From: a virus
Lineage: Duplodnaviria > Heunggongvirae > Uroviricota > Caudoviricetes
Reading direction: 5' to 3' (one strand)
Virus record (IMG/VR): IMGVR_UViG_2579778784_000011
DNA: 4,393 nt
This document shows, in pieces, positions 1 through 4,393 of the stretch (its first letter is position 1; each line of letters starts with the position of its first letter). Position numbers and translations under genes: made by a program. The notes beneath the pieces are model-generated. The model was given only the letters and a program-made list of their open reading frames with translations. It made no database searches and was not told the DNA's origin.

Positions 1-1734
1 GCACGCAACGCTGAAGCCGCCTCTCAGAGCGCAGCGGCAGCAAAGAAATCAGAAACAGCAGCGGCATCGTCCAGGAATGCGGCGAAAACATCAGAGACGA
101 ATGCAGGTAACAGCGCGAAAGCGGCAGCTTCTTCAAAAACAGCCGCACAAAACGCAGCAACAGCGGCAGAACGTTCAGAGACAAATGCCCGTGCGTCAGA
201 AGAAGCCTCCGCAGACAGTGAAGAGGCTTCCCGCCGTAATGCAGAGTCAGCCGCTGAAAATGCCGGAGTCGCCACCACAAAAGCGCGGGAGGCCGCAGCA
301 GACGCAACAAAGGCCGGGCAGAAAAAGGATGAGGCTCTGTCGGCAGCGACACGGGCTGAAAAGGCGGCAGACCGCGCAGAAGTCGCAGCGGAAGTGACTG
401 CAGAGCCCTATGCGAATATAGTGCCGCCGCTGCCTGATGTGTGGATACCGTTTAACGATTCACTGGATATGATTGCGGGTTTTTCTCCGGGCTATAAAAA
501 AATAGCTATTGGTGACGATGTGGTTCAGGTCGCCAGTGATAAACAGGTTAATTTCAGTCGCGCATCAACGGCAACATATATCAACAAATCTGGCGAACTG
601 AAAACGGCGGAAATTAATGAGCCGCGATTTGAGTGTGATGGCCTGCTTATTGAGGGACAAAGAACGAACTACATGCTCAATTCGGAAAGTCCAGCCAGCT
701 GGGGGAAGTCATCAAACATGGATGTGCCCGAAACCGGGACGGATAGTTTTGGTTTTACTTATGGAAAGTTTGTCTGCAACGATTCTCTGGTTGGGCAAAC
801 TTCGGCTATTAATATGGCATCAATTGCTGCAACAAAGTCAGTTGATGTCTCAGGCGATAACAAGTACGTGACAACCTCATGCCGTTTTAAAACAGAACGA
901 CAGGTAAGGTTACGTATACGGTTTGATAAGTATGATGGTAGTGCAACAACTTTTCTTGGCGATGCGTACATTGATACGCAAACGCTTGAAATTAATATGA
1001 CAGGTGGTGCTGCCGGCAGAATTACGGCACGAGTCAGGAAGGATAAGACCACAGGCTGGATTTTTGCAGAGGCAACGATTCAGGCAATTGATGGTGAGTT
1101 AAAAATAGGCTCTCAGATACAGTATTCTCCTGAGCAGGGTGGGGCAACAGTATCTGGTGACTATATTTATCTTGCCACCCCACAAGTAGAGAATGGGCCG
1201 TGTGTATCATCATTTATTATTTCAGGAGGCAGCGCAACGACAAGAGCCAGTGATTTGGTTAGTATCCCCACCAGAAATAATCTTTATAAGTTACCATTTA
1301 CTTTTTTACTTGAGATTCATAAAAACTGGGATATTGCACCAAACGCCGCACCCCGCGTGTGGGATATAGCAGCAGCCAATACCGGGCAATTAGCAATTGC
1401 AGCAATCAACAGAGGTAGTGGTAAGTTATATATGAGTCTGTCAAACCCTTCAGGCTCGTATGTTAATAGCGCAGCGACAGATGTATTTGCAGAGAAAACC
1501 ACATTTGGATGTATTGCAAAAGCTGATGGTCACTTTCATGTGGTGACAAATGGTAAAGCGGTTAATGAAGTTTATTGTGAATATAATGGCGTGACCGCTG
1601 ATAAAAATATCCGATTTGGAGGGCAGACGAATACTGGAGAACGACATCTGTTTGGCCATATTCGCAATTTCCGCATATGGCATAAAGAAAAGCAATTGCA
1701 GCAATCAACAGAGGTAGTGGTAAGTTATATATGA
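1..1734 (+). CDS. side tail fibre protein (Stf-like), 5'-partial at window edge; 3' end frameshifted by a tandem duplication
   Basis: Frame 1 is open from nt 1 with no stop until 1732-1734, so the gene enters the window in progress and the GTG at 394 in the ORF track is internal. The first ~130 codons are an Ala/Ser/Thr/Glu/Lys-rich low-complexity shaft (e.g. AAKTSETNAGNSAKAAASSKTAAQNAATAAERSETNARASEEA), as in lambdoid Stf-type side tail fibres. A less GC-rich C-terminal region follows. The last 14 codons before the stop lie in copy 2 of the 299-bp duplication and are read out of phase. Confidence 0.8.
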   Translation, partial: ARNAEAASQSAAAAKKSETAAASSRNAAKTSETNAGNSAKAAASSKTAAQNAATAAERSETNARASEEASADSEEASRRNAESAAENAGVATTKAREAAADATKAGQKKDEALSAATRAEKAADRAEVAAEVTAEPYANIVPPLPDVWIPFNDSLDMIAGFSPGYKKIAIGDDVVQVASDKQVNFSRASTATYINKSGELKTAEINEPRFECDGLLIEGQRTNYMLNSESPASWGKSSNMDVPETGTDSFGFTYGKFVCNDSLVGQTSAINMASIAATKSVDVSGDNKYVTTSCRFKTERQVRLRIRFDKYDGSATTFLGDAYIDTQTLEINMTGGAAGRITARVRKDKTTGWIFAEATIQAIDGELKIGSQIQYSPEQGGATVSGDYIYLATPQVENGPCVSSFIISGGSATTRASDLVSIPTRNNLYKLPFTFLLEIHKNWDIAPNAAPRVWDIAAANTGQLAIAAINRGSGKLYMSLSNPSGSYVNSAATDVFAEKTTFGCIAKADGHFHVVTNGKAVNEVYCEYNGVTADKNIRFGGQTNTGERHLFGHIRNFRIWHKEKQLQQSTEVVVSYI

Positions 1735-1989
1735 GTCTGTCAAACCCTTCAGGCTCGTATGTTAATAGCGCAGCGACAGATGTATTTGCAGAGAAAACCA
1801 CATTTGGATGTATTGCAAAAGCTGATGGTCACTTTCATGTGGTGACAAATGGTAAAGCGGTTAATGAAGTTTATTGTGAATATAATGGCGTGACCGCTGA
1901 TAAAAATATCCGATTTGGAGGGCAGACGAATACTGGAGAACGACATCTGTTTGGCCATATTCGCAATTTCCGCATATGGCATAAAGAAT
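1392..1989. repeat. perfect direct tandem duplication, 2 x 299 bp (unit 1392-1689, junction base A at 1690, copy 1691-1988)
   Basis: Base-by-base comparison: 1392-1689 is identical to 1691-1988 over 298 bp. The first difference is 1690 (A) versus 1989 (T). Confidence 0.97.
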
Positions 1990-2021
1990 TAAATGACAGG
2001 CAATTAAAAGAGGTCGTATGA
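1731..2021 (+). CDS. displaced tail fibre C-terminal fragment (copy 2 of the duplicated segment in the native phase); likely remnant, not an independent gene
   Basis: Encodes the same 85 residues as copy 1 (MSLSNPSGSY...FRIWHKE), then LNDRQLKEVV and a TGA that overlaps the next ATG (ATGA at 2018-2021). This looks like the original end of the tail fibre gene. Its own ATG overlaps the upstream stop (ATGA at 1731-1734), so reinitiation is possible. Confidence 0.4.
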   Translation: MSLSNPSGSYVNSAATDVFAEKTTFGCIAKADGHFHVVTNGKAVNEVYCEYNGVTADKNIRFGGQTNTGERHLFGHIRNFRIWHKELNDRQLKEVV

Positions 2022-2296
2022 AAGATTTAACTTTGAAGTTTCATGACAAACTGCAGTTTAAGGCCTTCCTGTCATCTCTTGGCTGGGCGGAAGATGAAGA
2101 CCTCCAGAATAAACTGTTAGTTGATGAAATTGGTTTCACCTACACAGAAACAGGGGTAACAGAAGAGGGAGAACCTGTCTGTATCCGGAATGATGGTTAT
2201 TTTGTCAACATTCGCATTCTTGATGACTTGTTTGATGTTTCTGTATTCTCTGATTATGTCGTGGAGCTGGAAACACCGCTTCGGGAATGGAGCTGA
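2018..2296 (+). CDS. hypothetical small acidic protein (92 aa), translationally coupled to the tail fibre gene
   Basis: ATG at 2018 overlaps the native-phase tail fibre stop (ATGA), with AAGAGG a few nt upstream. 92 aa, strongly acidic (about 20 Asp/Glu versus 8 Lys/Arg). No motif recognised. Its 3' two-thirds lies inside the 271-bp duplication. Confidence 0.6.
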   Translation: MKDLTLKFHDKLQFKAFLSSLGWAEDEDLQNKLLVDEIGFTYTETGVTEEGEPVCIRNDGYFVNIRILDDLFDVSVFSDYVVELETPLREWS

Positions 2297-2618
2297 AAGG
2301 AGGAAATAATGGATATAAGCCCCTTACTTCATGCACTTTGTGCTGTATCTTGGCTGGGCGGAAGATGAAGACCTCCAGAATAAACTGTTAGTTGATGAAA
2401 TTGGTTTCACCTACACAGAAACAGGGGTAACAGAAGAGGGAGAACCTGTCTGTATCCGGAATGATGGTTATTTTGTCAACATTCGCATTCTTGATGACTT
2501 GTTTGATGTTTCTGTATTCTCTGATTATGTCGTGGAGCTGGAAACACCGCTTCGGGAATGGAGCTGAAAGGAGGAAATAATGGATATAAGCCCCTTACTT
2601 CATGCACTTTGTGCTGTG
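2077..2618. repeat. perfect direct tandem duplication, 2 x 271 bp (unit 2077-2346, junction base A at 2347, copy 2348-2617)
   Basis: Base-by-base comparison: 2077-2346 is identical to 2348-2617 over 270 bp. Position 2347 is A where the base after copy 2 (2618) is G. Confidence 0.97.
2331..2567 (+). CDS. chimeric duplicate ORF created by the 271-bp duplication; probably not an independent gene
   Basis: MHFVLY, from the start region of the downstream gene, is fused in frame to residues 21-92 of the 2018-2296 product. No Shine-Dalgarno precedes its ATG. The strong RBS+ATG at 2297-2311 instead opens a 19-codon ORF ending at 2363-2365. Confidence 0.3.
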   Translation: MHFVLYLGWAEDEDLQNKLLVDEIGFTYTETGVTEEGEPVCIRNDGYFVNIRILDDLFDVSVFSDYVVELETPLREWS

Positions 2619-2868
2619 GCTGCGCAGATACTGGTTGGTCTTTTTTACCGGAAACTGGGCTTACGGAGCGATAGCCGGTTGTACGTTCTTCATTGCGCGT
2701 GAACATACCCAGGCAGAATATCGCTGGATTGAAATGTTCGGGCATGGCAAGCGAATGAATATGCCGTGGTGGGGCGGTTTTGATCCGCGTGCTTGGGATG
2801 TGGCAAGCCTGATGGATTTTGCTGTGCCGGTGGTGGCGTGTCTGCTGATCTGGATGTTGATCCGTTAA
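2602..2868 (+). CDS. hypothetical small membrane protein (88 aa, two predicted transmembrane segments); start uncertain
   Basis: Open frame with enterobacterial-like codon choice (CTG, GTG, CCG, GCG frequent). Two hydrophobic stretches long enough to span a membrane (WLVFFTGNWAYGAIAGCTFFIA and VASLMDFAVPVVACLLIWMLI), with Arg-Arg before the first. No Shine-Dalgarno before ATG 2602; a strong AAGGAGG-N5-ATG lies at 2568-2582 in a different frame. Confidence 0.55.
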   Translation: MHFVLWLRRYWLVFFTGNWAYGAIAGCTFFIAREHTQAEYRWIEMFGHGKRMNMPWWGGFDPRAWDVASLMDFAVPVVACLLIWMLIR

Positions 2869-2919
2869 ATATAAAAAGTAAAAAGCCGCAGTAACTTGTC
2901 ATGATAGGATACTGCGGCT
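2869..2919 (-). terminator. candidate intrinsic terminator for dinI (hairpin plus U-tract on the minus strand), possibly bidirectional
   Basis: Inverted repeat AGCCGCAGTA (2884-2893) / TACTGCGGCT (2910-2919): a 10-bp stem with a 16-nt loop. On the minus strand the stem is followed by UUUUACUUUUUAUAU (complement of 2869-2883), about 65 nt past the dinI stop. The loop is long for a canonical terminator. Confidence 0.45.
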
Positions 2920-2985
2920 GGCTGGTTAACTTTCGATAGTGCGAGTATTGAATGATTTCCAGCCGTTACTGATTTTACGTGCTAA

Positions 2986-3234
2986 TTAGTGAACAAACCA
3001 CTCGTCAGCAGACTCCCAGGTATCTTTCAGAGTTTCCTGAACAAAAGTTTTAGCTGAATCTTTATCGGCGGTGCGCGTAACAGAAAGGCCATCGTTGCTG
3101 GTGGCTTTTACGATCACCTCTACATCGTCATAACGTTTACTGATGCGTCGGGTTAATTCTTCCTTTAACGCATCCACAGCACCGTTTGGCATTTTAGTCA
3201 TTTTTTCTTTGGCTATGCAGATCTCAATACGCAT
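2986..3234 (-). CDS. dinI: DinI-family DNA-damage-inducible protein (82 aa)
   Basis: The translation [82 protein letters not shown] matches my memory of E. coli DinI at many positions (MRIE..IAK, GA.DAL, EL.RRI, LSV, QET, TWESAD.WFV). It is preceded by an AGAGGG Shine-Dalgarno and two LexA boxes. Not verified by search. Confidence 0.9.
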
Positions 3235-3249
3235 AAAAGTCCCTCTATA

Positions 3250-3265
3250 CTGTGTTTGTATACAG
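3250..3265 (-). promoter_or_regulatory. LexA box (SOS operator), promoter-proximal, overlapping the likely transcription start of dinI
   Basis: CTGTGTTTGTATACAG on the + strand matches the CTGT-N8-ACAG core of the enterobacterial LexA consensus TACTGTATATATATACAGTA, with flanking TA...TG. It lies 16-31 nt upstream of the dinI ATG. Confidence 0.75.
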
Positions 3266-3270
3266 TGTTA

Positions 3271-3299
3271 TTTTTAACTGTATGGATAAACAGTGTCAA
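3271..3299 (-). promoter_or_regulatory. candidate sigma70 promoter of dinI (-35 TTGACA at 3294-3299, -10 TAAAAA/AAAAAT near 3270-3276, minus-strand sense)
   Basis: Minus-strand sequence is cTTGACA-ctgtttatccatacagt-TAAAAAt: a perfect -35 hexamer, a 17-18 bp spacer and an A/T-rich -10 (4/6 match to TATAAT). The -35 hexamer overlaps the integrase stop codon (3296-3298). Confidence 0.5.
3278..3293 (-). promoter_or_regulatory. second LexA box, occupying the -35/-10 spacer of the dinI promoter
   Basis: CTGTATGGATAAACAG (CTGT-N8-ACAG), 12 bp from the first box and directly abutting the TTGACA -35 element. Confidence 0.75.
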
Positions 3300-4393
3300 G
3301 AGGTCTTATTTCTGCTCCTTTGGAGCTCTTCAAAACGATTATGTAAAGATTTCGGATACAGTTCGGTATATACCTGCCATAGCACGTTTAATGAACGATG
3401 CCCTGTAACCTGAGCGACTTCCTCAATACTAAAACCAGCCTCAAATAAGCGACTTGCCCCTTCTCTACGCAAATCATGGTATCGCAGATCTTTAATACCT
3501 AATTTGCTTCTTACCCTCTGAAATCCTGCAGTAACAGAAGTGCTGTTATATGGAAAAATGAATTCCGATTTTTTGGGCTGTCGTTGGACGATATCCCAGG
3601 CTTCCCCAAGCAAGGCTACTTTCATGTGGTTGCCTTCCTTTTTGCGTGGATCTTTCCTGTCTCTTACGAGTATAGATTTTTGTTCCTGGTCGAGATCTTC
3701 CCATCGTAACCGGCATACTTCTCCGATCCGCATACAGGACCACACAGAAAATTTGAGGATATCAACGAACGGAATTTTTGAGCATTTATGAGTAGATCGT
3801 TGTTGAAGGCCTTCAATGAGCATGTCCAGTTCATCAGATGCTGGTCTACGATTACGACGGTTTGATTTACCAATCAAACCAAGTTTAAGTAGATATGGGC
3901 GAGCGCTTTTCGCCGGGTTTGATGTGTAATTAATTCCGTATACAGGTTTGGCCGCATCCAGAACACTGCCAAGATAACTAACATCGTGGCTGACTGTTGC
4001 TGGACCTGCACCAGCGTTGTTTCTTAGCCTGCAATGTTCAATTACGTCATTTTCTGTCAGTTCAGATAGTTTGATCGCGGAGATGTCACTATCCATAAGC
4101 AGTTCCAGCACATATCTTTTAGTACGGCCTGCTTTACCTCCGGCATTTGGGTCATTTAAATATTTGTGTAGTAAGTCACGGACTGTAAGTCCGTCAACTG
4201 CATTTGATGATGGAATGCCATATAGATCTAATTCCATCACTTTCTGTGTTCCCCATGTTTTGGCATGAGCATGTTTAGGGAATGTTTTGCTTTCCCTGTA
4301 AGTGATAACACCTTTTTCTTTGATAATCACATTACAGCGATAGCGTGGTGTGCCATCGGATTTTAGTCGTTTCTCTATGTTATAGTACGCCAT
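3296..4393 (-). CDS. int: phage integrase, tyrosine recombinase family (365 aa); ATG at window edge, apparently complete
   Basis: C-terminal catalytic-domain signature in order: Arg in MRIGEVCRLRWEDL, Lys in KKEGNHMKVAL, HDLRREGASRL (His-x-x-Arg), GHRSLNVLWQVYTEL (His/Trp and the presumptive catalytic Tyr). Size is typical of lambda-like integrases, and it sits next to a tail module and a moron region. Start codon is at 4391-4393; an upstream extension beyond the window cannot be excluded. Confidence 0.9.
   Translation of the reverse strand: MAYYNIEKRLKSDGTPRYRCNVIIKEKGVITYRESKTFPKHAHAKTWGTQKVMELDLYGIPSSNAVDGLTVRDLLHKYLNDPNAGGKAGRTKRYVLELLMDSDISAIKLSELTENDVIEHCRLRNNAGAGPATVSHDVSYLGSVLDAAKPVYGINYTSNPAKSARPYLLKLGLIGKSNRRNRRPASDELDMLIEGLQQRSTHKCSKIPFVDILKFSVWSCMRIGEVCRLRWEDLDQEQKSILVRDRKDPRKKEGNHMKVALLGEAWDIVQRQPKKSEFIFPYNSTSVTAGFQRVRSKLGIKDLRYHDLRREGASRLFEAGFSIEEVAQVTGHRSLNVLWQVYTELYPKSLHNRFEELQRSRNKTS

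What the first reader, a model, noticed from the sequence alone, without database searches (positions are those of the whole stretch)
2602..2868. Small two-helix membrane protein in moron position, candidate superinfection-exclusion or receptor-masking factor
An ~88-aa protein with two predicted transmembrane helices sits between the tail fibre module and the dinI/int arm. In lambdoid phages this position holds lysogenic-conversion and exclusion genes such as cor, lom and bor. The local composition is more host-like than the adjacent AT-richer tail fibre 3' region, consistent with separately acquired cargo. Function is not deducible from sequence.
Basis: inference. Interest (0 to 1): 0.4.

Follow-up and report, generated by a model that had tools for sequence, protein, structure and literature searches.

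The report
Frameshifted small phage membrane gene
The ORF is real but wrongly delimited: it is a frameshifted copy of a conserved 95-residue, three-helix inner-membrane protein of unknown function that many unrelated phages carry just after their receptor-binding tail genes, so it is a reasonable but untested exclusion candidate.

Summary
The 2602-2868 ORF exists, but its first 15 codons are out of frame. In mEp460, phage 21 and E. coli prophages the gene starts at the ATG at 2580, behind an AAGGAGG ribosome-binding site, and encodes 95-97 aa. The window has T6 at 2641-2646 where relatives have T5. That +1 frameshift cuts off helix 1. The same allele is in one human-gut metagenome contig.

The intact protein matches PHROG 1443 (unknown function) over its full length. 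It has no Pfam, NCBIfam, PADLOC, PDB or fold match, and no profile similarity to Cor, T4 Imm, P22 SieA, HK97 gp15 or GtrA. AlphaFold gives three helices (pLDDT 94). Charge distribution places the invariant loop (AREHTQAEYRW...MPWWGGFD) in the cytoplasm.

Close copies occur in about 23% of complete E. coli genomes, with dN/dS 0.19. Relatives occur across alpha-, beta-, gamma- and deltaproteobacteria. In lambda-, P22-, P2/HP1-, P1- and Kuttervirus-like phages the gene lies directly after non-homologous tail fibres or tailspikes. Lone chromosomal copies also persist.

Function is inferred, not shown. I favour an inner-membrane exclusion role. Outer-membrane receptor masking is unlikely. Two perfect tandem duplications in the window have no public counterpart.

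The parts
2568..2574 (+). Shine-Dalgarno AAGGAGG, five bases upstream of the true start codon
   Evidence: Read directly from the sequence. Annotated as the ribosome-binding site of the orthologue in phage 21.
2580..2868 (+). True gene: a frameshifted allele (289 nt, against 288 in mEp460) of a 95-aa three-helix membrane protein, PHROG 1443
   Evidence: Alignment with mEp460 and phage 21. Full-length PHROG 1443 match for the corrected protein, E 1.7e-57. The exact corrected protein is on 292 public contigs.
2641..2646 (+). T6 run: a one-base insertion relative to T5 in relatives, giving a +1 frameshift. The frame from 2580 then stops at 2702.
   Evidence: The same allele is in ENA contig ERZ915809 k127_2055.
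2602..2646 (+).
2647..2868 (+). Genuine coding part. It encodes residues 23-95: helix 2, the invariant loop AREHTQAEYRWI...MPWWGGFD, and helix 3.
2309..2346 (+). Duplicated first 38 nt of the gene, with its ribosome-binding site at 2297-2303. It lies inside the 270-nt tandem repeat and would give only a 19-aa peptide (MDISPLLHALCAVSWLGGR).
   Evidence: The junction is absent from all public relatives.
2018..2296 (+). Upstream 92-aa gene (PHROG 1361, unknown function). It follows Laminin_G_3-type fibres and is probably fibre-specific.
2884..2919 (.). Stable hairpin between the convergent late operon and dinI. A T-run follows it only on the - strand.
   Evidence: -21.5 kcal/mol with z -3.8 on the + strand; -17.4 kcal/mol with z -3.9 on the - strand.
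2986..3234 (-). dinI-like gene (context)
   Evidence: Pfam DinI, E 1.2e-19
3296..4393 (-). Tyrosine integrase (context). The prophage is integrated next to dusA.

Best explanation
Identity (near certain). The feature is a frameshifted allele of a conserved 95-aa phage gene of the PHROG 1443 family. The gene starts at 2580 and is the last gene of the late-operon receptor-binding cassette of a dusA-integrated lambdoid prophage: J, lom, stf, 92-aa gene, this gene, then convergent dinI and int. The intact product is a three-helix inner-membrane protein. The best-supported topology has the N-terminus inside, a two-residue periplasmic turn, the invariant 34-residue loop on the cytoplasmic face, and the C-terminus outside.

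Function (inferred, about 0.35). The intact protein acts alone, with host components, at the cytoplasmic membrane. It protects an infected or lysogenic cell from further phage, most likely by blocking productive genome entry after adsorption, as T4 Imm, P22 SieA and HK97 gp15 do. It does not act by covering an outer-membrane receptor. Phages carry it with their exchangeable receptor-binding modules. It is made late in infection from the late transcript. Whether lysogens make it is unknown.

In this window the T6 insertion removes helix 1, including the conserved D2, H8 and Q16. The local copy is therefore probably inactive, unless a rare +1 slip on CUU-UUU-U restores the frame.
For: Identity: orthologues and alignment; full-length PHROG 1443 match; gene order, dusA site; exact corrected protein on 292 contigs.

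A real, selected gene: 80 of 80 IMG/VR alleles are intact. dN/dS is 0.19 over 53 alleles. Close copies are in 1,261 of 5,426 complete E. coli genomes. There are 568 homologue clusters at 90% identity and 430 representatives at 50% identity, all stand-alone proteins of 58-146 aa with no fusions.

Structure and topology: AlphaFold2 pLDDT 93.9, three helices. Mean K+R is 5.2-5.5 in loop 40-73, against 0.25-0.6 (N-tail), 0.02-0.04 (turn) and about 0.5 (C-tail).

Linkage to receptor-binding genes of unrelated types:
- lambdoid Laminin_G_3 fibre plus the 92-aa gene
- Peptidase_S74 short fibres in 76 of 80 E. coli IMG/VR loci, with gaps of 9-76 nt, mostly 10 or 42
- P22-like tailspike
- phiHAP-1 tail fibre assembly gene
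- HP1/P2-like tail fibres in Leclercia, Enterobacter and Aeromonas
- P1-like fibres
- pectate-lyase tailspikes in Citrobacter and in a Kuttervirus-sized Salmonella contig
- gpJ in Comamonas
- tail proteins in Chelativorans, Sphingobium and Desulfovibrio
The sampled upstream tail proteins do not match one another by BLASTP.

Autonomy and benefit to the host: lone chromosomal copies sit in housekeeping neighbourhoods in Aeromonas (next to pirin), Leclercia, Silvania and sphingomonads (next to ligA or pnp). Decayed fragments sit next to acquired tailspike modules in the virulent phages HC6 and KFSST3, which fits a function not needed for virion production.
Against: No experiment bears on function. 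There is no sequence, profile or fold similarity to any known exclusion protein.

Known genome-entry blockers are not usually linked to receptor-binding genes. The known linked examples (Cor, Llp, gtrABC, oac) act on the receptor itself.

No promoter of its own was found, so expression in a lysogen is unproven.

The phage 21 annotators report a different prediction: TMHMM gives 2 transmembrane domains, N-in and C-in, and SignalP gives a signal sequence. That would put the conserved loop in the periplasm.

Intact copies inside tail gene clusters (the HP1-like prophages, and a Kuttervirus-sized Salmonella contig where it lies between two tailspike genes) and after terminase genes show that the function is not confined to lysogeny.

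The very strong conservation of polar residues (H8, R40, E41, Q44, E46) would also suit an enzyme or a ligand-binding site.
Confidence: 0.4

Rival explanations
1. Surface-glycan pathway modulator. From the cytoplasmic face of the inner membrane the protein interferes with a conserved step of O-antigen, capsule or ECA assembly, such as undecaprenyl-phosphate-linked initiation, flipping or polymerisation. The infected or lysogenic cell then loses or alters the polysaccharide that the neighbouring tail fibre or tailspike recognises. This would stop kin phages and prevent progeny from being lost on cell debris. It would work like Pseudomonas D3 Iap or the Gnarl proteins, not like Cor.
For: Where the neighbouring tail proteins have recognisable domains, these are of glycan-binding or glycan-cleaving types: Laminin_G_3 lectin, Peptidase_S74 fibres, pectate-lyase tailspikes and a P22-type tailspike. 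Known genes linked to receptor-binding genes act on the receptor. In P22 the same slot, between the tailspike gene and int, holds gtrABC; in the P22-like phage JEP4 it holds this gene. Small stand-alone phage proteins that alter O-antigen have recently been shown to exist (PMC12373910). A conserved lipid-carrier step could explain the conservation across four proteobacterial classes.
Against: There is no similarity to GtrA, and the family's motifs are absent from the Gnarl paper's supplements. Carriers such as phage 21 are listed with E. coli as host, and other carriers list K-12 MG1655 as host; K-12 lacks O-antigen (own knowledge). Copies after terminase genes and lone copies in unrelated housekeeping neighbourhoods show no link to glycan loci. 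No LPS data exist.
Confidence: 0.22
2. Accessory factor for the phage's own tail fibres, virion or lysis. The protein helps mature or release the adjacent receptor-binding protein, or tunes lysis, and has nothing to do with excluding other phages.
For: Start and stop are tightly coupled with the upstream fibre gene in many phages. In HP1-like prophages it lies inside the tail gene cluster. In Comamonas prophages it lies just before a putative lysis cassette, and in the P1-like element just before a gene pair of which the second is LydB.
Against: The upstream tail proteins are unrelated to each other, while this protein is highly conserved. It persists as a lone chromosomal gene without any phage genes nearby. 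It has decayed in two virulent phages that keep the adjacent tailspike. Laminin_G_3 fibres already have their own small partner, the 92-95-aa gene. It lacks the charged C-terminal tail typical of holins (read from the sequence).
Confidence: 0.1
3. General membrane-homeostasis protein or small membrane enzyme of bacterial origin. Phages picked it up, and it spreads mainly by hitch-hiking with the frequently exchanged receptor-binding cassettes.
For: Copies sit at the same chromosomal position in several Aeromonas species (next to pirin) and next to ligA or pnp in sphingomonads. Invariant His, Arg, Glu and Gln residues within or at the edge of the membrane resemble an active or binding site.
Against: Hitch-hiking alone does not explain how one gene came to lie next to so many non-homologous tail genes in different genome architectures. 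Most members found are in prophage or phage context. No fold or family match to any membrane enzyme was found.
Confidence: 0.15
4. The 88-aa ORF as read (start at 2602), or a programmed +1 frameshift at CUU-UUU-U, gives the functional product of this locus.
For: A +1 slip of tRNA-Phe from UUU to the overlapping UUU would restore exactly the wild-type sequence LF-TGNW (read from the sequence). The T6 allele is recorded in an independent assembly.
Against: Relatives have T5 and a single open frame. There is no ribosome-binding site before 2602. The 88-aa product lacks helix 1 and its conserved D2, H8 and Q16.
Confidence: 0.05

Closest known systems
T4 Imm, P22 SieA and HK97 gp15 (inner-membrane superinfection-exclusion proteins that block genome entry)
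   Same: Small, stand-alone, phage-encoded integral inner-membrane proteins with little or no periplasmic domain. HK97 gp15 is also an insert among the tail genes.
   Different: No sequence or profile similarity (hhalign probability below 1%). Different sizes and helix numbers. None of the three lies directly after a receptor-binding gene in the records read here. No exclusion phenotype has been shown for this family.
Cor (HK022, phi80, N15, T1) and T5 Llp (receptor blockers encoded next to tail or receptor-binding genes)
   Same: Small gene placed after the host-recognition genes (HK022 cor lies after J). The logic of linking protection to the receptor-binding module is the same.
   Different: Cor and Llp are outer-membrane lipoproteins that act on FhuA (own knowledge). 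This protein has no lipobox (its C11 is not conserved), is a polytopic inner-membrane protein, and shows no similarity to Cor.
Small phage proteins that alter O-antigen: Gnarl1-3 (PMC12373910) and Pseudomonas D3 Iap
   Same: Stand-alone proteins of 40-90 aa, found in both temperate and virulent phages, proposed to protect against kin phages and debris. This gene sits next to glycan-directed tail proteins.
   Different: No sequence relation was found. Gnarl3 binds the soluble enzyme GalU, whereas this is an integral membrane protein. No LPS data exist for this family.
Conversion slots after tail genes: P22 gtrABC, lambda lom, P2 Z/fun (between G and FI; own knowledge)
   Same: Same genomic slot. 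In JEP4 the gene lies between the tailspike gene and int, where P22 has gtrABC. In phiHAP-1 it lies between the tail fibre assembly gene and the sheath gene FI.
   Different: gtrABC, in the P22 record, has its own promoter and terminator and is transcribed on the opposite strand to the tailspike gene. This gene is co-oriented with the fibre genes, closely spaced, and no promoter was found.

Membership tests
PHROG 1443 (uncharacterised phage protein family) | Full-length match to the family profile | tested here: met
The corrected 95-aa protein scores E 1.7e-57, residues 1-95 on profile positions 1-95 of 97.
PHROG 1443 (uncharacterised phage protein family) | Single uninterrupted reading frame of about 95-100 codons | tested here: not met
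   T6 against T5 at 2641-2646 shifts the frame. The frame from 2580 stops at 2702. 80 of 80 IMG/VR relatives are intact.
PHROG 1443 (uncharacterised phage protein family) | Conserved motif: H8, R40-E41, Q44-A45-E46, W72, P83 | tested here: met
   All are present in the corrected protein. H8 is lost from any product of the window as written.
Cor / Llp receptor-blocking lipoproteins | Sequence or profile similarity to Cor | tested here: not met
   hhalign probability 0.3% against HK022 Cor.
Cor / Llp receptor-blocking lipoproteins | Lipoprotein signal peptide with a lipobox cysteine | tested here: not met
   The residues before C11 are H-A-L, which is not a lipobox. There is no basic n-region, and C11 is not conserved.
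T4 Imm (Pfam Imm_superinfect) | Sequence or profile similarity | tested here: not met
   No Pfam hit up to E 10 other than a chance PhoR match. hhalign probability 0.25% against T4 Imm.
P22 SieA | Sequence or profile similarity | tested here: not met
   hhalign probability 0.09%.
HK97 gp15 | Sequence or profile similarity | tested here: not met
   hhalign probability 0.17%.
Superinfection-exclusion proteins (functional class) | Reduced plating of challenge phage when the protein is expressed | not testable with these tools
   Needs the experiment described under next steps.
Moron (Hendrix-type autonomous insert) | Base composition different from the flanks | tested here: met
   GC 0.525, against 0.40-0.425 upstream and 0.435 downstream.
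Moron (Hendrix-type autonomous insert) | Own promoter upstream | tested here: not met
   No sigma-70-like site on the + strand in 1900-3350. The gap to the upstream gene is 12 nt in the unduplicated orthologues. A consensus scan cannot exclude a weak or embedded promoter.
Moron (Hendrix-type autonomous insert) | Own terminator downstream | tested here: inconclusive
   There is a strong hairpin at 2884-2919, but the T-run follows it only on the - strand.
Moron (Hendrix-type autonomous insert) | Expressed from the repressed prophage | not testable with these tools
   Needs RNA-seq or a reporter in a lysogen.
Gnarl proteins (PMC12373910) | Sequence identity with Gnarl1-3 or with other library genes of that screen | tested here: not met
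   The family's motifs are absent from the 16 supplementary files.
Holins | Highly charged C-terminal cytoplasmic tail and a place in a lysis cassette | tested here: not met
   The protein ends 0-7 residues after helix 3. The adjacent genes in the window are tail-fibre genes, dinI and int; no lysis gene lies in the window.

The most novel reading that the evidence does not exclude
PHROG 1443 is an unrecognised class of single-gene, inner-membrane protection factor found across the proteobacteria. It travels with exchangeable receptor-binding cassettes in lambda-, P22-, P2/HP1-, P1- and Ackermannviridae-like phages. It acts through its invariant cytoplasmic-face motif on a universally conserved host component, for example the polyprenyl-phosphate carrier pathway or a general genome-entry step. 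Bacteria have repeatedly kept it as a lone chromosomal gene after the prophage decayed.
Probability: 0.25. Interest if true: 0.6.

Novelty: new member of a known kind. Interest (0 to 1): 0.3.

Why it matters
For this window alone it matters little, because the local copy is frameshifted and probably dead.

The family is of more interest. It is present in roughly a quarter of complete E. coli genomes and in phages of at least five architectures. It is under purifying selection and has no Pfam family, no known structure and no literature. Its consistent position after unrelated tail fibres and tailspikes makes it a cheap, well-defined candidate for a plasmid-expression test of exclusion or surface remodelling. 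A positive result would add a widespread determinant of phage host range, which is relevant to phage therapy and to predicting prophage-mediated resistance.

The case also shows that an ORF list alone can mis-delimit a gene at a homopolymer frameshift.

Tried and rejected
- Pfam, NCBIfam and PADLOC scans of the corrected protein, and Pfam scans of 49 diverse relatives, gave nothing above chance.
- A PDB sequence-profile search gave 0 hits.
- An exhaustive HMM search for informative domain fusions found none.
- Literature searches by concept, by motif and by PHROG number found no paper on the family. One search call failed on term length.
- The search for related loci with the wide alignment A4 failed because no conserved stretch was long enough. 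It was repeated with A3.
- The idea that all upstream tail proteins share one receptor-binding domain, which would have argued for receptor-specific masking or a dedicated chaperone, was rejected: none of the sampled tail proteins that precede the gene in different phages matches another by BLASTP.
- My first context script reported the 92-aa gene upstream in only 1 of 80 IMG/VR loci. Inspection showed that most loci have an extra Peptidase_S74 fibre gene between the 92-aa homologue and the focal gene.
- Naive ORF calling in GC-rich loci was used only as a guide and was checked with PHROG and Pfam scans.
- The holin idea was rejected: no charged C-terminal tail, and the sequence is too conserved.
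- Programmed frameshifting was rejected as the normal mode, because relatives have T5.
Full report
**What is in the window.** The window is the right end of the late arm of a lambdoid prophage. It holds the 3' two-thirds of a side tail fibre gene, a 92-aa ORF (2018-2296), the focal small ORF, then a convergent dinI-like gene (2986-3234) and a tyrosine integrase (3296-4393). The closest phage is mEp460_4F5 (99.5% identity), followed by lambda-like recombinants and phage 21. In E. coli C25 and seven other complete genomes the same block reads J, lom, stf, 92-aa gene, 95-aa gene, dinI, int, dusA, so this is a dusA-integrated prophage.

**Checking the observation.** The ORF at 2602-2868 exists but is mis-delimited.
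- In mEp460 and phage 21 the gene is 288-294 nt and begins at the ATG that corresponds to window 2580, five bases after AAGGAGG.
- The three-way DNA alignment shows one difference of consequence: the window has T6 at 2641-2646 where the others have T5.
- The frame from 2580 therefore ends at 2702 after 40 aa.
- Its first 15 codons are out-of-frame sequence, and no ribosome-binding site precedes it.
- The composition claim holds: GC is 0.525 at 2601-2800, against 0.40-0.425 upstream.
- The two-helix claim holds only for the ORF as read. The intact protein has three helices.

**Is the frameshift real?**
- None of 1,264 E. coli records carrying this segment matches the 71-nt stretch around the T-run perfectly.
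- IMG/VR has no T6 match, and 76 of 80 IMG/VR alleles show T5; the pattern did not match in the other 4.
- However, the exact 88-aa ORF is gene-called on two ENA contigs. The one shown comes from a human-gut metagenome (ERZ915809, k127_2055, 54.6 kb) and has the same gene order through dusA and pspG.
- Apart from two extra repeat copies and four substitutions (positions 78, 995, 1133, 1391), the window is identical to that contig.
- T6 is therefore a recorded, rare allele. It is either a recent inactivating mutation or an assembly error; only the reads can tell.
- A +1 slip of tRNA-Phe on CUU-UUU-U would restore the wild-type sequence. Since relatives have T5, this is not a conserved programmed event.

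**Two duplications in the window.** There are two perfect tandem repeats: 1392-1689 with 1691-1988, and 2077-2346 with 2348-2617. In each, the two copies are separated by a single A that matches neither flank.
- The first repeat shifts the frame of the fibre gene 10 codons before its natural stop.
- The second repeat duplicates the 3' part of the 92-aa gene, the ribosome-binding site and the first 38 nt of the focal gene.
- Neither junction occurs in IMG/VR, in 5,426 complete E. coli genomes (the two halves of each junction query map 270 or 298 nt apart), or in the near-identical metagenome contig.
- The products they would create are not in the 15-billion-protein collection.
- I treat them as artefacts or private variants. 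They do not change the reading of the focal gene.

**The protein family.** The corrected protein has 568 homologue clusters at 90% identity, all called hypothetical and nearly all 95-102 aa. They come from Escherichia, Shigella, Salmonella, Citrobacter, Enterobacter, Leclercia, Aeromonas and Comamonas.
- An exhaustive profile search finds 430 representatives at 50% identity. All are stand-alone proteins of 58-146 aa with no fusions.
- A scan of one genome per species adds sphingomonads, Chelativorans, Devosia, Halomonas, Acidovorax, Pigmentiphaga and Desulfovibrio.
- The central motif AREHTQAEYRWI..FG.GKR.NMPWWGGFD.R.W..S..D..VP is almost invariant among close relatives.
- Across the whole family H8, R40, E41, Q44, A45, E46, W72 and P83 persist.
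- Among 53 E. coli-type alleles dN/dS is 0.19, and 80 of 80 IMG/VR copies are intact.
- Close copies are in 1,261 of 5,426 complete E. coli genomes.
- There is no Pfam, NCBIfam or PADLOC match, no PDB sequence match and no paper.

**Structure and topology.** AlphaFold2 on a 76-sequence alignment gives pLDDT 93.9 and three helices at 4-23, 26-52 and 74-94.
- Helices 1 and 3 are strongly hydrophobic. Helix 2 is hydrophobic for about 15 residues and then continues as the charged REHTQAEYRWIE segment.
- Fold searches return only generic helical bundles.
- Mean K+R counts are 5.2-5.5 in loop 40-73, against 0.25-0.6 in the N-tail, 0.02-0.04 in the helix 1-2 turn and about 0.5 in the C-tail.
- By the positive-inside rule this gives N-in, three spans, conserved loop cytoplasmic and C-out. 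Almost nothing is then exposed to the periplasm.
- This is an inference. The phage 21 annotators report TMHMM with 2 transmembrane domains, N-in and C-in.

**Genomic context elsewhere.** This is the main positive result. The gene lies directly after receptor-binding genes of many kinds:

| Phage or prophage type | Gene directly upstream |
|---|---|
| Lambdoid (this window, mEp460, phage 21) | Laminin_G_3 side fibre, then the 92-aa gene |
| E. coli IMG/VR loci (76 of 80) | 234- or 346-aa Peptidase_S74 short fibre; gaps 9-76 nt, mostly 10 or 42 |
| P22-like JEP4 | Tailspike; int lies downstream |
| phiHAP-1 | Tail fibre assembly gene; sheath gene downstream |
| HP1/P2-like prophages (Leclercia, Enterobacter, Aeromonas) | 875-939-aa tail fibre |
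| P1-like element | Two Laminin_G_3 fibres, each with a 94-95-aa partner |
| Citrobacter lambdoid | Pectate-lyase tailspike |
| Kuttervirus-sized Salmonella contig | Lies between two tailspike genes |
| Comamonas prophage | A 2,520-aa gpJ, then a 72-aa gene |
| Chelativorans, Sphingobium, Desulfovibrio | Tail proteins |

- The sampled upstream tail proteins do not match one another by BLASTP.
- Exceptions exist. Intact copies follow terminase genes in an Aeromonas jumbo phage and in a Desulfovibrio locus.
- Lone copies sit among housekeeping genes in Aeromonas (next to pirin, in several species), Leclercia, Silvania and sphingomonads (next to ligA or pnp).
- The virulent phages HC6 and KFSST3 carry only decayed fragments beside their tailspike genes.

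**Comparison with known families.**
- Profile-profile comparison with HK022 Cor, HK97 gp15, T4 Imm, P22 SieA and P22 GtrA gives probabilities below 1%.
- The protein has no lipobox, and its one N-terminal cysteine is not conserved.
- It is not a classical moron. No promoter was found on its strand, and in the unduplicated orthologues it lies 12 nt after the preceding gene.
- A strong hairpin follows at 2884-2919, but the T-run suits termination of dinI transcription on the other strand.
- The closest published concept is the Gnarl proteins, small stand-alone phage proteins that alter O-antigen (PMC12373910). The family's motifs are not in that paper's supplementary data.

**Most likely mechanism.** What is shown:
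- a selected, autonomous, three-helix membrane protein;
- carried next to heterogeneous receptor-binding genes;
- retained by bacteria as a lone gene;
- lost in some virulent phages;
- almost no predicted periplasmic exposure.

From this I infer a protective function exerted at the inner membrane, through the conserved cytoplasmic-face loop, on a conserved host component. I commit to a block of productive genome entry, working like Imm, SieA or gp15, at about 0.35. Interference with the lipid-linked glycan pathway, working like Gnarl or Iap, is a close rival at about 0.22, mainly because the linkage to glycan-directed tail proteins is what one expects of receptor-level protection. A role in fibre assembly or lysis (0.10) and a general membrane function spread by hitch-hiking (0.15) are less likely. 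In this window the gene is frameshifted, so whatever the family does, this copy probably does not do it.

**Verdict.** The local feature is an ordinary, probably inactive copy of an already catalogued hypothetical gene. The family behind it is a reasonable and inexpensive experimental target.

Noticed in passing
window 1392-1689 and 1691-1988 (single A at 1690): A perfect 298-nt tandem duplication inside the side tail fibre gene. The copies are separated by one A that matches neither flank. It shifts the frame 10 codons before the natural stop, giving ORFs 394-1734 and 1731-2021. It is absent from IMG/VR, from all complete E. coli genomes and from the near-identical metagenome contig.
   Followed up: yes
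window 2077-2346 and 2348-2617 (single A at 2347): A second perfect tandem duplication of 270 nt, with the same one-base A filler. It spans the 3' part of the 92-aa gene, the ribosome-binding site and the first 38 nt of the focal gene. It has no public counterpart. Two events with the same unusual anatomy suggest an artefact of assembly or of how the window was prepared.
   Followed up: yes
window 78, 995, 1133, 1391: These are the only four substitutions relative to ENA contig ERZ915809 k127_2055. One of them (1391) lies immediately next to the first duplication boundary.
   Followed up: partly
window 3248-3267: TACTGTGTTTGTATACAGTG is a good LexA box (CTG-N10-CAG). It lies just downstream of a predicted - strand promoter (3299-3270) and upstream of dinI, so the prophage dinI is probably SOS-regulated.
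   Followed up: no
window 2018-2296: The 92-aa ORF (PHROG 1361, no Pfam match) overlaps the fibre gene's stop codon. Homologues of 92-95 aa follow the Laminin_G_3-type fibres in other prophages, and 94- and 95-aa genes (homology not tested) follow both Laminin_G_3 fibres of a P1-like element. It is probably a fibre-specific partner or chaperone of unknown fold.
   Followed up: partly
L010 3965-4120 (phage HC6) and L012 2980-3105 (Kuttervirus KFSST3): Unannotated, decayed fragments of the same gene lie just after the tailspike or S74 fibre genes of virulent phages. This suggests that receptor-binding cassettes were imported from temperate phages together with this gene, which then decayed.
   Followed up: partly
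L004, L018, L019, L021, L026 (Aeromonas); L074, L078 (sphingomonads): Lone chromosomal copies of the family sit at conserved positions, after pirin in several Aeromonas species and after ligA in sphingomonads, with no phage genes nearby.
   Followed up: partly
L003 8300-10033 (Comamonas testosteroni prophage): Here the homologue is followed directly by what looks like a lysis cassette: two small multi-helix membrane proteins, a 183-aa candidate endolysin and an Rz-like protein with an N-terminal anchor. In this phage the tail and lysis modules abut.
   Followed up: no
L002 3118-5511 (phage 21): In phage 21 the slot after this gene holds the sitBCD iron/manganese transporter genes instead of dinI and int. 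The variable cargo therefore begins immediately downstream of the focal gene.
   Followed up: no
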